Positions 28,598-32,350 of a stretch of 57,670 bases of DNA are shown one piece after another. The translations under genes were made by a program, and so were the position numbers. How positions within the stretch are numbered: position 1 is the first letter of the stretch; the number at the start of each line of letters is the position of its first letter. The notes under the pieces were generated by a model. It made no database searches, was not told the origin of the DNA, and worked only from the letters and a program-made list of their open reading frames with translations. Source of the DNA: an uncultured archaeon (GTDB taxonomy: Archaea > Nanohalarchaeota > Nanosalinia > Nanosalinales > Nanohalalkaliarchaeaceae); contig CAZNTD010000001.1 in assembly GCA_964575915.1 (NCBI GenBank), positions 1 to 57,670 of the forward strand. Reading direction: 5' to 3'.

Positions 28598-29038
28598 ATG
28601 GACACGGACAGGCGTTCGGTGCGGTACGTCAACCGGGAGCGGGTGGACCGGACGTACGGCGTCGAACTGTCACCGGACGGGGCGACGTTCCTCGCGGGCG
28701 GCGACCTGCTCGTCGCCGCATCCGGCGGGACCGGCGGGGAGTACGTGGTCGCGGCGGACCACCCCCTGGACGTGGCGGGGCTGGACCGGGACCGGGTCTC
28801 CCGGTTCATCGACGACCTGGAGGCTGCCGTCCCGGGCCGCCACGCGTGGTACGACGGCAAGCCGAAGGGGACGCGTGTCGTCGACCTGCCGCACCGTGAC
28901 CCGCCGGAGAAGACGCCCATCAACACCGTCGACCCGGCGTACGGGGCGGCGCTGGACGCGGTCAGCCGTGAACTCGGCCGGCGGACGGACCACCCGGTCA
29001 TGGCACTCGGGGCGCTGCCGTTCCAGTGGGACGACTAG
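28598..29038 (+). CDS. hypothetical protein
   Basis: 146-aa ORF. TATA catttaagc lies about 27 nt upstream. Confidence 0.5.
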   Translation: MDTDRRSVRYVNRERVDRTYGVELSPDGATFLAGGDLLVAASGGTGGEYVVAADHPLDVAGLDRDRVSRFIDDLEAAVPGRHAWYDGKPKGTRVVDLPHRDPPEKTPINTVDPAYGAALDAVSRELGRRTDHPVMALGALPFQWDD

Positions 29039-30567
29039 CGGAACGCCGCGAGGAGATCCTGCAGGAACCGCTGCAGCGCGGCGAACACCGTGTTCACGAG
29101 GTTCCGGGCATCGCCACCGACCGTCCCGTTCGTGGGGAGGATGGGTGAGCCGCCCGGGTCCAGGTCCGGCCGCTCCACCGGTTCGATGGGGACCTGGTCC
29201 ACCTGGCCCTCGAGGTCACCGAGTTCGGGGATGACCGGCTCCATCTCGTTCACCTCGTCGAGGCATGCGCGGAGCTGCGCCTCGGATGGCAGGTCGCACG
29301 GCCGGAACGTCGCGTCCATGAGGGACAGGATCTGCTCGTTGGACGTGGCGGTGTCCTCGATGGCCTCGGTCCGATCCTCGTTCAACTGCCGGAGGTCGCG
29401 GTAGACGGGCTGGAGCGACTCCGCACCTTCCTCCATGACGTGGTTGCGGATGACGAGTTCGCCGTACGCGTAGCCGAACGTCCGGTCGATGGAATCCTGC
29501 TCGAAGAGCGTCCACTCCAGCATCGCGTTTGAGCCGGACGCGTAGTAGTCCCACAGGTCCTCGGGCGTCTTCCGGGGCGGGTAGGTGTGCGTCCGGTTGA
29601 TGCGCACCGTCTCGCCGAATATCTCCGCCTGCGGGACGGACCGGTTCGCGTTCACCAGCCACTCGACGTACTTGGCGGTGCCCTCGTCGAACCACGCCCG
29701 TTGCGCCCGGGTCCACCGCAGCGCCTGCTCGTTGAACCCGTGCATGACCTCGTGGAGGAGGACGCCGGGGCCGTGATCGCTCTCAAGCGTCGGCCGTTTC
29801 ATGAAGATGATGCCGCCGGTCCGGTACTGGCCGGCGCTCCACCGGTCCACCTCCGCCTCGTATGTCTCCGCGTCGTAGACGATGACCGGATACCGGTTGA
29901 CCGTGGGCAGGAAGCCGGTCACCGCGGCGGGCACCCAGTAGAGGTCGTCGGCGGTCGAGATGTCGCCCGGGCCGAACAGCACCATGTTGTCGTACCGTTC
30001 GCCCTGGTCGCTGACCGTGAGATGGAGGTTGACAGGTCCTTCCCCGGACAGGTTGATGCCGTTCGGCTCCATCGCGGCGTCGAACCCGAGGCTGTGCGAC
30101 TGGCTGTGAAGCGCGCGCTCCGTCGATACCTGGACCTGCGTGACCTCGTCCGGCCGGTCGGGATACCGGTCGGAGAAGCCGGACAGGCGCAGCCGCACCA
30201 GGTCGAGTTCCCGGTACTCCTCCGTCACCGCACTCTCGGTGGTCGCGTGTACGGTCACGACCTCGCGGGTCCGGGCTGTTCCCTGGTTGGTATCGAACCG
30301 GAGCACCCCGTCATCGAAGGTATAGTCCTCGATTGGCCCCAGTGAATCGCTGACGGACAGTACGCGGAACCTCTCGGGAAGCGGGAATCCCTGGTTGCTG
30401 ACTCGCCAGAAGTTTTTCGGCTCGTCCGCGTACAGTTCGAATGTGACGTTGAGGTCCGCGGTGTCGCCGTCGACCGTGATGTCGTACGACGTGACGGCGC
30501 CGACAGCGGGCATCAGGAGCAGCAGGACCGCGAGCGGCAGGACGCCGCGCACCAGGCGTGTATGCAT
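29035..30567 (-). CDS. secreted gluzincin-type zinc metallopeptidase-like protein
   Basis: Signal/anchor VRGVLPLAVLLLLMPAVGA. HEVMH followed by 18 residues and then E (HEXXH-X18-E). Confidence 0.7.
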   Translation of the reverse strand: MHTRLVRGVLPLAVLLLLMPAVGAVTSYDITVDGDTADLNVTFELYADEPKNFWRVSNQGFPLPERFRVLSVSDSLGPIEDYTFDDGVLRFDTNQGTARTREVVTVHATTESAVTEEYRELDLVRLRLSGFSDRYPDRPDEVTQVQVSTERALHSQSHSLGFDAAMEPNGINLSGEGPVNLHLTVSDQGERYDNMVLFGPGDISTADDLYWVPAAVTGFLPTVNRYPVIVYDAETYEAEVDRWSAGQYRTGGIIFMKRPTLESDHGPGVLLHEVMHGFNEQALRWTRAQRAWFDEGTAKYVEWLVNANRSVPQAEIFGETVRINRTHTYPPRKTPEDLWDYYASGSNAMLEWTLFEQDSIDRTFGYAYGELVIRNHVMEEGAESLQPVYRDLRQLNEDRTEAIEDTATSNEQILSLMDATFRPCDLPSEAQLRACLDEVNEMEPVIPELGDLEGQVDQVPIEPVERPDLDPGGSPILPTNGTVGGDARNLVNTVFAALQRFLQDLLAAFR

Positions 30568-30992: not shown

Positions 30993-31931
30993 TCAGTCGC
31001 CGGGTTTCTCCGCGTCCAGGTCGAGCTCCTCGATGAGCTCCCGGGCACGGGCACGGACCGTGACGGTCGTCACCCCGAGCGTCTCCCCGACGTCGGTGAT
31101 GGTGCGGTCCTCACCGGCCATCCGCGCCGCCACGAACAGCGCCGCCGCGGCGATGCCGGTGGGCGACTTGCCGGAGAGGAGTTCCTGGTCGCGGGCCCGG
31201 CCGATGATGTCCAGGGCGTGCTCGCGCACCGCATCGCTCAATTCGAGCCGGTCCGCGAACCGCTTCAGGTGGTCCTCCGGTGCGGGTGGCAGGACACGGA
31301 CATCCGTGTTCCGGCCGATGTACCGGTAGGCGCGGCCGACCGACTTCTTGGACGTCCCGACAGCGGCCGCGACCTCGTCCAGCGTCCGCGGATCGGTCTC
31401 GTCCTTCGCCGCGATGTAGATGACACCGCCCAGCATCTGCGGGAACGGGTACGCCCGCATCAGCCCCTTGTCCCGGACGACCTCGAGCAGTTCGACCGCC
31501 CGGTCGTGGACGTCACGGGACAGTTCAAGGGACGAGATGGCCTGCTGCATCCGGGTCATCTCGTACGCCGGCCGGTCCTGGATGTCGGGCAGCCACTTCT
31601 CGATGCCGCGGTACCGGTCGGTCATCGCCACGAGCAGTATCCCGGCGGCGACCATGACCATGTTGAACCCGACCACCGCCACCGCCATCAGCGCGATCTC
31701 GGTGCGTGGCGCCAGCAGCTCGTCGTACTCCCGGCCGATACGGGAGAGGTAGACCAGGAGGGCGGGGAGGAGCGCGACCGCGAGGTGGACCGGGACGTGC
31801 ACCCCGAGCAGCGTCTCGACCACGACGCTCCCGGTCACCCACTCGAACAGGAGGACCGTGGAGAACACGATGAACCCGTACTCGATGCACGCGAACCCGA
31901 CCTTGCCCCACACCGGTCGTCCTCCCGTCAT
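30993..31931 (-). CDS. TFB/TFIIB-core (two cyclin-fold repeats) protein with N-terminal transmembrane region instead of zinc ribbon
   Basis: The C-terminal 200 aa carry two TFIIB repeats (LELSRDVHDRAVELLE..., LELSDAVREHALDIIG...GKSPTGIAAAALFVAARM...). The N-terminal ~110 aa have three hydrophobic helices and no CxxC pairs. Confidence 0.75.
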   Translation of the reverse strand: MTGGRPVWGKVGFACIEYGFIVFSTVLLFEWVTGSVVVETLLGVHVPVHLAVALLPALLVYLSRIGREYDELLAPRTEIALMAVAVVGFNMVMVAAGILLVAMTDRYRGIEKWLPDIQDRPAYEMTRMQQAISSLELSRDVHDRAVELLEVVRDKGLMRAYPFPQMLGGVIYIAAKDETDPRTLDEVAAAVGTSKKSVGRAYRYIGRNTDVRVLPPAPEDHLKRFADRLELSDAVREHALDIIGRARDQELLSGKSPTGIAAAALFVAARMAGEDRTITDVGETLGVTTVTVRARARELIEELDLDAEKPGD

Positions 31932-31979
31932 ACCATGATGTTGGCGTCCGAGGCTTAAAAGACCGGTCGGATGTCCGCG

Positions 31980-32153
31980 TCACCCCGCGAGACGGACGTA
32001 CAGGATCCAGGTGAGGGACAACCCAGCGACGAGGCCGAACGCCGTGGGGAAGAACGCGAGCACGGGGACGTTCCGGGAGATGACGCTTGCAAGCAGGAAG
32101 ACCGCGACGACCACGAGGGCGGCTCCGATACGCATATGCCGCAGGGCGGACAT
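31980..32153 (-). CDS. possible 57-aa two-TM membrane protein (not in ORF track)
   Basis: Hand translation gives MSALRHMRIGAALVVVAVFLLASVISRNVPVLAFFPTAFGLVAGLSLTWILYVRLAG. GC3-rich codons. It lies between tRNA-Trp and the TFB-like gene. Confidence 0.45.
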   Translation of the reverse strand: MSALRHMRIGAALVVVAVFLLASVISRNVPVLAFFPTAFGLVAGLSLTWILYVRLAG

Positions 32154-32161
32154 GAGCGGAG

Positions 32162-32350
32162 TGGGGACACCCGGATTTGAACCGGGATCAACCGCTCTCT
32201 CCGTGGGGTCGGCAAGATCATCGCCCGTCAGGGCTCAGCCCTCCAGACCACTGCGCAGCAGCGGAGCGTTCCGGACGGAACGCGACCGTATTGCCGCCTG
32301 CTACGGCAGGCGCTGGAGGCGGTTAGGATGCCTGATTACCCCATGTCCCC
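32162..32350 (-). tRNA. tRNA-Trp (anticodon CCA) with 116-nt intron at 37/38
   Basis: Acceptor GGGGACA/TGTCCCC, anticodon stem ACCGC/GCGGT, loop CT-CCA-G[intron]A, T arm CCCGG-TTCAAAT-CCGGG, discriminator A. TATA gttttaaatcc lies about 28 nt upstream. Confidence 0.85.
32197..32312 (-). other. tRNA-Trp intron with box C/D-like guide element
   Basis: Exon CTCC pairs with intron GGAG, with bulges AG|C and AG|A. The intron contains CTGGAGG-G-CTGA, complementary to the anticodon loop. See findings. Confidence 0.7.

What the first reader, a model, noticed from the sequence alone, without database searches (positions are those of the whole stretch)
30993..31931. TFB/TFIIB-core protein whose zinc ribbon and B-reader are replaced by three transmembrane helices
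The C-terminal ~200 aa of this 312-aa protein contain both cyclin-fold repeats of archaeal TFB. They include the helix-turn-helix-like end of each repeat: LDEVAAAVGTSKKSVGRAYRYI and ITDVGETLGVTTVTVRARAREL.

Canonical TFBs start with a CxxC...CxxC zinc ribbon and a B-reader/linker that contact RNA polymerase. Here the first ~110 aa contain one Cys only and three strongly hydrophobic helices: VGFACIEYGFIVFSTVLLFEWV, VPVHLAVALLPALLVYL and IALMAVAVVGFNMVMVAAGILLVAM.

A membrane-tethered TFB core could still bind TBP/DNA but could not recruit RNA polymerase. That would make it a candidate TBP- or promoter-sequestering (anti-TFB-like) regulator, or a signal-released transcription factor. A 57-codon two-TM ORF lies directly upstream.
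Basis: partly seen in the sequence, partly recalled or inferred. Interest (0 to 1): 0.6.

Follow-up and report, generated by a model that had tools for sequence, protein, structure and literature searches.

The report
Membrane-anchored TFB core paralogue, Nanohaloarchaeota
A tiny salt-loving symbiotic archaeon encodes a copy of the general transcription factor TFB whose polymerase-recruiting front end is replaced by three membrane helices; this conserved, undescribed design probably ties a promoter/TBP-binding module to the membrane, though which side it faces is unsettled.

Summary
ORF 30993-31931(-) encodes 312 aa. Residues ~121-305 are a confident double-cyclin TFB core (Pfam 7e-32; 1D3U_B 5e-35). 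Residues 1-104 carry no zinc ribbon or B-reader, one Cys, and three hydrophobic helices. No ribbon is hidden upstream: a stop lies 16 codons up and a TATA box 26.5 nt up.

This is a conserved family of about 25 sequences, all named carriers being Nanohaloarchaeota. It occurs in 7 of 70 genomes of the phylum. It is monophyletic and sister to a short paralogue that keeps the ribbon but lacks the B-reader. Both modules are under purifying selection. The BRE-recognition helix residues T-x-R-x-R are kept in 25/25 members. The genome also has canonical TFBs and a single TBP.

The positive-inside rule (loop1 7 K+R, loop2 62, 21 members) predicts N-in/C-out, which would put the core outside the cell. 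Conserved DNA-contact residues and natural TM-less derivatives argue for a cytoplasmic core. I estimate about 65% inside and 30% outside.

The upstream 57-codon ORF is not conserved and is not a partner. I found no published description: a new variant of a known kind.

The parts
30993..31931 (-). Gene for the 312-aa membrane-anchored TFB-core paralogue
   Evidence: ORF. Pfam and NCBIfam hits. Family conservation. dN/dS below 1.
31955..31960 (-). TATA-like box TTTTAA, centred 26.5 nt upstream of the ATG; implies a leaderless or near-leaderless mRNA and its own promoter
   Evidence: Sequence. The 13-nt core CTTTTAAGCCTCG is identical in the closest relative L047. TTTAA-type boxes sit ~25-33 nt upstream in all eight family loci examined.
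31902..31931 (-). N-tail, residues 1-10 (MTGGRPVWGK), net positive; W8 nearly invariant in the family
31836..31901 (-). Hydrophobic helix 1 (residues 11-32) with the family motif G12..C15..Y18-G19; Y18 and G19 are invariant
   Evidence: Hydropathy. Hessa sum of 1.7. AF2 helix 5-33. Invariant columns.
31743..31796 (-). Hydrophobic helix 2 (residues 46-63), shorter, Pro-containing and only marginally hydrophobic
   Evidence: Hydropathy 2.06. It is not called by the Hessa sum in this protein or in most members. AF2 helix 46-64 here and 51-70 in P0009.
31695..31742 (-). Loop 2 (residues 64-79), rich in Arg and Lys across the family; the main topogenic signal
   Evidence: K+R totals 62 in loop2 against 7 in loop1 over 21 members
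31623..31694 (-). Hydrophobic helix 3 (residues 80-103), the most hydrophobic segment; G88 nearly invariant, G97 and L100 invariant
   Evidence: AF2 models it as a straight helix (75-102 here, 79-108 in P0009).
31587..31613 (-). Juxtamembrane motif YRGIEKWLP (residues 107-115). W113 aligns with the invariant W of the canonical 'RKW' at the end of the B-linker, and the motif is shared with the short-ribbon paralogue ('YSGIEKWQ')
   Evidence: Alignments A1 and A2. Short paralogue sequence. The linker has low AF2 confidence.
31293..31571 (-). First cyclin-fold repeat of the TFB core (residues ~121-213)
   Evidence: Pfam PF00382. Aligned to 1D3U_B and 1AIS_B. AF2 pLDDT 88-94.
31017..31283 (-). Second cyclin-fold repeat (residues ~217-305), with the C-terminal helix-turn-helix
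   Evidence: Pfam stretch 217-301
31035..31070 (-). Recognition helix TTVTVRARAREL (residues 288-299). T291, R293 and R295 are kept in 25/25 family members and in at least 96% of canonical TFBs. E289->T and Y296->small are family-specific changes
   Evidence: The role of this HTH in BRE recognition is stated in PMC13502027.

Best explanation
**What it is (shown).** The gene encodes a membrane-anchored paralogue of transcription factor B.
- Three N-terminal hydrophobic helices replace the zinc ribbon, the B-reader and most of the B-linker.
- A short conserved juxtamembrane motif, Y-x-G-I-E-K-W-L-P, follows.
- The complete two-cyclin TFB core comes last.
- It belongs to a small monophyletic family found in Nanohaloarchaeota. 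The family arose once, from a paralogue lineage that had already lost the B-reader.

**How it most likely works (inferred).**
- The core faces the cytoplasm.
- It still binds the cell's single TBP and BRE/TATA DNA.
- Without the ribbon it cannot dock RNA polymerase.
- It would therefore act as a membrane-tethered, non-productive competitor. It would either hold TBP or selected promoters at the membrane, or occlude them.
- The altered helix-turn-helix positions suggest its own BRE preference.
- Activity could be tuned by its expression level or by its membrane module.
For: - **Architecture:**
- **Core identity:** closest to the P. woesei TFB core of the TBP/DNA ternary complexes (1D3U_B and 1AIS_B, E 5e-35; top Foldseek hits).
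- **Family size and spread:** ~25 members with the same design. It occurs in 7 of 70 genomes of the phylum and in 3 of the 28 genomes that are at least 90% complete.
- **Carriers:** every carrier record that bears an organism name is from Nanohaloarchaeota.
- **Single origin:** the membrane clade has 100/100 support. It groups with the short-ribbon paralogues against canonical TFBs, also at 100/100.
- **Selection:** dN/dS is 0.09-0.20 for the core and 0.18-0.61 for the membrane module.
- **Conserved positions:** of 47 columns that are at least 80% identical in 76 canonical cores, 25 are kept in at least 80% of the family and 12 more in 50-80%. These include the surface basic residues R161, R176, R182 and R203, and T291, R293 and R295 of the recognition helix.
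- **Cytoplasmic derivatives:** P0011 and P0007 lack the membrane segments. They keep their own TATA boxes and intact cores, so they can only be cytoplasmic.
- **Competition is possible:** the genome has two canonical TFBs and one short-ribbon TFB, and one TBP gene.
- **Domain roles:** the ribbon recruits RNAP and the second-repeat HTH reads the BRE (PMC13502027).
Against: - **Topology rule:** the positive-inside rule points the other way. Over 21 members K+R is 41 in the N-tail, 7 in loop1, 62 in loop2 and 40 in the 15 residues after helix 3. Loop2 exceeds loop1 in 20 of 21 members. With three straight spans (AF2) the core would be outside.
- **P0014:** it keeps only the third helix, preceded by an Arg-rich stretch. 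This also reads as N-in/C-out.
- **No direct data:** there is no evidence for TBP or DNA binding.
- **Divergence:** three HTH-region positions (Q278, E289, Y296) are systematically changed. The family's branches are much longer than those of canonical TFBs.
- **Context:** no conserved neighbour or operon suggests a target.
Confidence: 0.45

Rival explanations
1. Exported TFB core. The protein inserts N-in with three spans, and helix 3 acts as a signal anchor. The cyclin-fold core is then displayed on the outer face of the membrane. There it has a non-transcriptional role, such as binding DNA or a partner at the cell surface of this host-attached symbiont.
For: - The charge pattern is consistent across the family: loop1 is nearly free of K/R (7) and loop2 is rich (62). 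The N-tail is positive in most members.
- AF2 gives three uninterrupted helices long enough to span a membrane.
- P0014 has a single hydrophobic helix with an Arg-rich N-flank.
- Branches are long and several canonical positions are replaced family-wide, which suggests a new function.
Against: - All known TFIIB-fold factors act on DNA and TBP inside the cell (general knowledge).
- The DNA-recognition residues T291, R293 and R295 and several surface basic residues are kept across members whose pairwise identity falls to about 36-40%. That is hard to explain outside the cell.
- TM-less derivatives with intact cores and their own promoters exist.
- Helix 2 is only marginally hydrophobic in most members, so a two-span N-in/C-in topology is not excluded.
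- The divergent clade (P0080-P0083, L020, L022) has acidic N-tails and little charge bias.
Confidence: 0.3
2. Signal-released factor. The core faces the cytoplasm but is inert while tethered. An intramembrane protease such as S2P/M50 cuts helix 3 in response to an envelope or host-contact signal. This releases a soluble ribbon-less TFB core, which then represses or re-targets transcription. The logic resembles pro-sigma-K or anti-sigma systems.
For: - M50 proteases are present in the genome and in 65 of 70 genomes of the phylum.
- A small second M50 paralogue occurs in 5 of 7 genomes with the membrane TFB, against 9 of 63 without it.
- Conserved helix-breaking or small residues sit in helix 3 (G88, Pro or Asn, G97).
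- Soluble natural derivatives show that a free core is tolerated.
Against: - The presence of M50 is not specific. The paralogue association is confounded by phylogeny, because most genomes of family f1 have it.
- No protease gene is linked to the locus.
- A released core still lacks the RNAP-recruiting ribbon, so it cannot act as an activator.
- No cleavage evidence can be obtained here.
Confidence: 0.15
3. Artefact or decaying gene. The ORF would be a truncated or mis-started TFB pseudogene, and the hydrophobic N-terminus would be non-functional read-through of GC-rich sequence.
For: - Random long ORFs are common at 65-70% GC.
- The family is sporadic, in 7 of 70 genomes, and has long branches.
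Against: - The N-terminal module is conserved in register, with invariant Y18, G19, G97 and L100.
- Its dN/dS is below 1.
- It is modelled at pLDDT ~80 in P0009.
- It occurs in two taxonomic families, with a gene tree that follows them.
- Promoter and start are conserved.
- An in-frame stop lies 16 codons upstream, and no ribbon is encoded in any upstream frame.
Confidence: 0.02

Closest known systems
Canonical archaeal TFB (NCBIfam NF001658; P. woesei TFB core in 1AIS and 1D3U)
   Same: - Both cyclin repeats are present.
- The C-terminal HTH has the conserved T-x-R-x-R.
- The PRT, YR and SGK-x-G-x-AAA motifs are kept.
- The W of the 'RKW' at the end of the linker is kept.
- Identity over the core is 39%.
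   Different: - No zinc ribbon and no B-reader; only the last few residues of the B-linker remain.
- About 105 residues with three membrane helices stand in their place.
- Q278, E289 and Y296 in the HTH region are replaced family-wide.
- It evolves much faster than canonical TFBs.
Short-ribbon TFB paralogue of the same genome (G000 contig 10, 273 aa) and its relatives (P0084, L018, L019, L021)
   Same: - It is the sister lineage in the core tree.
- It shares the Y-S-G-I-E-K-W motif.
- It shares the loss of the B-reader.
- It shares several core substitutions (Y149, Y296, A124, L209).
   Different: It keeps a CxxC...CxxC ribbon joined to the core by a ~25-residue polar linker. It has no membrane helices and is found only in family f1.
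Sulfolobus TFB3 and TFB2 (specialised TFB paralogues; PMC6101594, PMC6101591, bioRxiv 10.64898/2026.09.06.749720)
   Same: They are accessory TFB paralogues with an altered domain set and regulatory, non-housekeeping roles.
   Different: - From my own knowledge, TFB3 is the opposite truncation: it keeps the ribbon and lacks a functional DNA-binding core.
- None of these paralogues is membrane-anchored.
Membrane-held bacterial initiation-factor systems (pro-sigma-K/SpoIVFB, PMC11486902; anti-sigma/ECF sigma pairs) and membrane-integral DNA binders of the ToxR/CadC type
   Same: The logic is the same: an initiation-factor-related or DNA-binding module is kept at the membrane, possibly coupled to envelope signals and intramembrane proteolysis.
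   Different: - The folds and domain of life are unrelated.
- Here the tethered module lacks its polymerase-binding part, so release could not activate transcription.
- No proteolysis or sensing has been shown.
Eukaryotic membrane-tethered transcription factors (SREBP, ATF6, plant NAC MTTFs)
   Same: A transcription-factor domain is fused to transmembrane helices.
   Different: - Those are gene-specific activators released by proteolysis.
- This one derives from a general factor and belongs to a prokaryote.

Membership tests
TFB/TFIIB family (functional general initiation factor) | N-terminal zinc ribbon (CxxC...CxxC) that docks RNA polymerase | tested here: not met
   There is no PF08271 hit even at E<=1. 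The whole protein has a single Cys. No upstream frame encodes a ribbon.
TFB/TFIIB family (functional general initiation factor) | B-reader and B-linker between the ribbon and the core | tested here: not met
   The NF001658 alignment starts at profile position 126. The canonical PEWRAF...HDMG.ST.IG block is absent, and only the W of 'RKW' aligns.
TFB/TFIIB family (functional general initiation factor) | Two cyclin-fold repeats (TFIIB core) | tested here: met
   PF00382 gives two stretches at 7.3e-32. The core matches 1D3U_B at 5e-35. AF2 core pLDDT is 88-94 and the top Foldseek hits are 1AIS_B and 1D3U_B.
TFB/TFIIB family (functional general initiation factor) | BRE-recognising helix-turn-helix in repeat 2 | tested here: inconclusive
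   T291, R293 and R295 are kept in 25/25 members and V290 as V or I. E289, Y296 and Q278 are replaced family-wide. Binding itself was not tested.
TFB/TFIIB family (functional general initiation factor) | Forms a TBP-TFB-DNA ternary complex | not testable with these tools
   No complex prediction or assay is available. One TBP gene is present in the genome.
Integral membrane protein | Hydrophobic helices long enough to span the bilayer | tested here: met
   Kyte-Doolittle windows reach 1.98-2.46. By the Hessa sum, helices 1 and 3 are robust and helix 2 is marginal. AF2 gives helices of 20-32 residues.
Integral membrane protein | Defined topology, that is, the side on which the soluble domain lies | tested here: inconclusive
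   The positive-inside rule predicts C-out. Functional conservation and TM-less derivatives suggest C-in. No dedicated topology predictor was available.
Regulated-intramembrane-proteolysis substrates (pro-sigma-K or RsiW-like logic) | A cognate intramembrane protease and signal-dependent cleavage | tested here: inconclusive
   M50 is present in 65 of 70 genomes and is therefore non-specific. The association with a small M50 paralogue has p=0.0027 but is confounded by phylogeny. Cleavage is not testable here.

The most novel reading that the evidence does not exclude
The positive-inside rule is right, and the TFB core is exported. It would be displayed on the outer face of the nanohaloarchaeal membrane, a general-transcription-factor fold re-used outside the cell. 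It might bind DNA or host factors at the interface between this obligate symbiont and its haloarchaeal host.
Probability: 0.2. Interest if true: 0.9.

Novelty: new variant of a known kind. Interest (0 to 1): 0.62.

Why it matters
- **A new kind of regulator for archaea.** Archaeal transcription is thought to be regulated mainly by swapping TFB and TBP paralogues and by bacterial-type repressors and activators. No membrane-tethered general factor, and no archaeal counterpart of an anti-sigma or decoy factor built from TFB itself, turned up in four full-text searches.
- **A link between envelope and transcription.** A conserved family that joins a promoter/TBP-binding core to a membrane module would give DPANN symbionts, which have ~1-Mb genomes and few regulators, a direct link between the cell envelope and the basal transcription machinery.
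- **A stepwise evolutionary path.** The family documents canonical TFB, then loss of the B-reader, then replacement of the ribbon by a membrane anchor, then secondary loss of the anchor in some lineages.
- **If the core is extracellular,** it would be an unprecedented re-use of the TFIIB fold.

Tried and rejected
1. **Hidden zinc ribbon upstream or in another frame.** Rejected. A stop lies 16 codons upstream, a TATA box lies 26.5 nt upstream, and a tRNA gene lies beyond that. The only Cys-rich alternative frame (31955-32221) overlaps the tRNA and has no second CxxC.
2. **The 57-codon ORF as a partner.** Rejected. It is absent from the closest relative's locus and from all other carriers.
3. 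**Conserved operon or neighbour.** A PIN_5 gene lies downstream only in one sub-clade. The window shares CSD and 509/510-aa neighbours only with its closest relative. The 510-aa neighbour is unrelated to the recurrent 415-aa protein.
4. **A dedicated TBP paralogue.** None: there is one TBP gene per genome.
5. **Third hydrophobic segment as a re-entrant hairpin,** which would reconcile the charges with a cytoplasmic core. AF2 does not support it even in a Pro-containing member.
6. **Relatives of the membrane module alone.** None were found at E<=0.01. That search has limited sensitivity for short hydrophobic queries.
7. **Mobile-element origin via the adjacent tRNA.** The window has no second copy of the tRNA 3' end. 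The gene tree follows the taxonomic families.
9. **Published TFB-DNA contact list** (Littlefield 1999, PMC24122). The paper is not held, so the contact arguments rest on PMC13502027 and general knowledge.
10. **Literature.** Four searches found no membrane-anchored TFB.

Full report
**1.

- The minus-strand ORF 30993-31931 encodes 312 aa.
- Pfam finds two TFIIB repeats (E 7.3e-32) and no zinc-ribbon domain, even at E<=1.
- The NCBIfam TFB model aligns residues 123-307 to profile positions 126-310 of 312. The first ~122 residues therefore occupy the place of the ribbon, B-reader and B-linker.
- The protein has one cysteine, C15.
- Three segments exceed the usual hydropathy threshold (peaks 1.98-2.46). 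The genome's canonical TFBs have no such segment and carry four ribbon cysteines.
- AF2 models the core with confidence (pLDDT 88-94). It places helices at 5-33, 46-64 and 75-102.
- Both quoted helix-turn-helix strings are at residues 184-205 and 278-299.

**2. No ribbon is hidden**

- The reading frame closes 16 codons upstream.
- A TTTTAA box is centred 26.5 nt upstream of the ATG, the usual spacing for a leaderless archaeal mRNA.
- The 13-nt promoter core and the start context are identical in the closest relative, which is 78% identical as protein.
- All eight family loci I examined have a TTTAA-type box 25-33 nt upstream of the annotated start.
- Further upstream lie a 57-codon ORF and the 3' end of a tRNA gene.

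**3. It is a conserved family, not a one-off**

- A word-indexed search found about 13 full-coverage homologues that carry PF00382 but no ribbon domain.
- An exhaustive profile search of 1.84 billion representatives returned 8074 TFB-like proteins. Among the best 150 listed, only about a dozen representatives matched the N-terminal module as well.
- All share the same plan:
  - a short N-tail, usually with W-x(3)-G;
  - helix 1 with an invariant Y-G;
  - a polar or Pro-rich loop;
  - a shorter Pro-containing helix 2;
  - an Arg/Lys-rich loop;
  - helix 3 with conserved glycines;
  - the motif Y-x-G-I-E-K-W-L-P-(D/E);
  - the TFB core.
- In the 70 species-level genomes of the phylum, seven give a full-length match: G000, G018, G019, G020, G022, G023 and G031. 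Three of these are among the 28 genomes that are at least 90% complete.
- Named carriers are Nanohaloarchaea archaeon B1-Br10_U2g1, Ca. Nanohalalkaliarchaeum halalkaliphilum NHA21 and Ca. Nanohalarchaeota archaeon NHA25.

**4. Origin**

- The window's genome is ~1 Mb and 70% complete. It has four TFB genes:
  - two canonical genes with ribbon and B-reader;
  - a 273-aa paralogue that keeps the ribbon, lacks the B-reader and carries Y-S-G-I-E-K-W;
  - the membrane form.
- In a maximum-likelihood tree of the cores, the 25 membrane-type sequences form one clade (100/100). That clade groups with the short-ribbon paralogues against canonical TFBs (100/100).
- The deepest split inside the membrane clade matches the two taxonomic families that carry it. 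This fits vertical descent with many losses.
- Branches are far longer than those of canonical TFBs.
- The likely path is: canonical TFB, then loss of the B-reader, then replacement of the ribbon by a membrane module.
- The membrane module alone has no detectable relatives.

**5. The gene is functional, and the core still looks like a DNA/TBP binder**

- dN/dS is 0.09-0.20 for the core and 0.18-0.61 for the membrane module in pairs where dS is not saturated.
- I took the 47 well-occupied columns that are at least 80% identical among 76 canonical cores. Of these, 25 are kept in at least 80% of the family. Another 12 are kept in 50-80%, mostly with conservative swaps. Ten are lost.
- Retained residues include the surface basic residues R161, R176, R182 and R203. 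They also include T291, R293 and R295 of the recognition helix, in 25 of 25 members.
- That helix-turn-helix reads the BRE, and the ribbon recruits RNA polymerase (PMC13502027).
- Family-wide replacements in the HTH region (Q278 to M/L/I, E289 to T, Y296 to a small residue) suggest altered sequence preference and not decay.
- The closest solved structures are the P. woesei TFB cores in the TBP/DNA complexes.
- Every genome in the phylum has one TBP gene, so all TFB paralogues share it.

**6. The unresolved point is topology**

- Over 21 full-length members, K+R counts are 41 (N-tail), 7 (loop1), 62 (loop2) and 40 (the 15 residues after helix 3). Loop2 exceeds loop1 in 20 of 21 members.
- By the positive-inside rule, loop1 is outside and loop2 inside. 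A straight third span then exports the core.
- AF2 on P0009 (mean pLDDT 81.5) gives three uninterrupted helices and a disordered linker. A re-entrant third segment is therefore not supported.
- P0014 keeps only helix 3, behind an Arg-rich stretch, and reads the same way.
- Four observations point the other way:
  - The DNA-contact residues are conserved (section 5).
  - Helix 2 is only marginally hydrophobic in most members, so a two-span N-in/C-in form is possible.
  - The most divergent sub-clade has acidic N-tails and almost no charge bias.
  - Two natural derivatives lack the membrane segments but keep their own TATA box and an intact core. P0011 sits just downstream of a canonical TFB gene. 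P0007 is a clean in-frame deletion that joins the start of helix 1 to the juxtamembrane motif. Such proteins can only be cytoplasmic.
- My estimate is about 65% for a cytoplasmic core and about 30% for an exported one.

**7. Mechanism**

- If the core is cytoplasmic, the protein can bind TBP and promoter DNA but cannot dock polymerase. It is then a membrane-tethered, non-productive competitor or promoter tether. This step is inferred, not shown.
- A proteolytic-release variant is possible. M50 proteases are present in 65 of 70 genomes. This is non-specific, and a released core could still only repress.
- No conserved neighbour points to a target or signal.
- The 57-codon ORF is not a partner.

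**8. Novelty**

- Four full-text searches found no membrane-anchored TFB or TFIIB.
- Where a source gives these proteins a name at all, it is a generic TFIIB name. Most carry no name.
- Earlier notes from this scan mention other odd TFB paralogues, but not this family.
- I class it as a new variant of a known kind.

**9. Limits**

- No dedicated topology predictor was available.
- No complex modelling was available.
- Most family members come from single metagenomic contigs.

Noticed in passing
G000 contig 10 (L002:1462-2283, minus strand); relatives L018, L019, L021, P0084: A 273-aa TFB paralogue keeps the CxxC...CxxC ribbon. Its B-reader and most of the linker are replaced by a ~25-residue Ser/Gly/Thr-rich spacer. 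It shares the YSGIEKW motif with the membrane family and is found only in taxonomic family f1. It is the sister lineage of the membrane TFBs.
   Followed up: partly
window 32160-32340 (minus strand): A tRNA gene lies upstream of the 57-codon ORF. Its T-arm and 3' end are at 32162-32183. Earlier notes call it tRNA-Trp with a long intron. Neither ARAGORN nor Rfam at gathering score reports it.
   Followed up: partly
L047:1-110: In the closest relative's contig, two copies of the tRNA 3' end (GTTCAAATCCGGGTGTCCCCA) lie ~75 nt apart, directly upstream of the membrane-TFB promoter. The window has the 57-codon ORF at that place. This looks like a variable, possibly integration-scarred spot next to the tRNA.
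   Followed up: no
window 31980-32153 (minus strand): The 57-codon two-helix ORF has no counterpart in 68 of the 69 other genomes of the phylum. The single exception is a marginal hit (E 0.0017). It is either specific to this lineage or not a gene.
   Followed up: yes
G000:C29:10126-10539 and equivalents in G018, G019, G023, G031: A small (~175-220 aa) second M50/S2P-like paralogue occurs in 5 of 7 genomes with the membrane TFB, against 9 of 63 without it (Fisher p=0.0027). The association is confounded by phylogeny and by MAG incompleteness. It is only a weak lead for a release protease.
   Followed up: partly
L054:1-81 and 135-827: The TM-less family member P0011 lies 54 nt downstream of the 3' end of a canonical TFB gene and has its own TTTTTAAA box. 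This is a tandem arrangement of a canonical TFB and a core-only TFB.
   Followed up: partly
L009, L010, L011, L043, L044, L046 (gene directly downstream of the TFB): In the P0008/P0009/P0012/P0013 sub-clade, a ~210-aa PIN_5 (PF08745) gene follows the membrane TFB on the same strand after a 34-60 nt gap. This is not so in the other sub-clades or in the window.
   Followed up: no
window 29035-30567 (minus strand): A 510-aa protein has an N-terminal signal-like hydrophobic stretch and an HEVMH (HExxH) motif, but no Pfam hit. It is syntenic with a 509-aa gene in the closest relative (L047). It may be a secreted metalloprotease-like protein.
   Followed up: no
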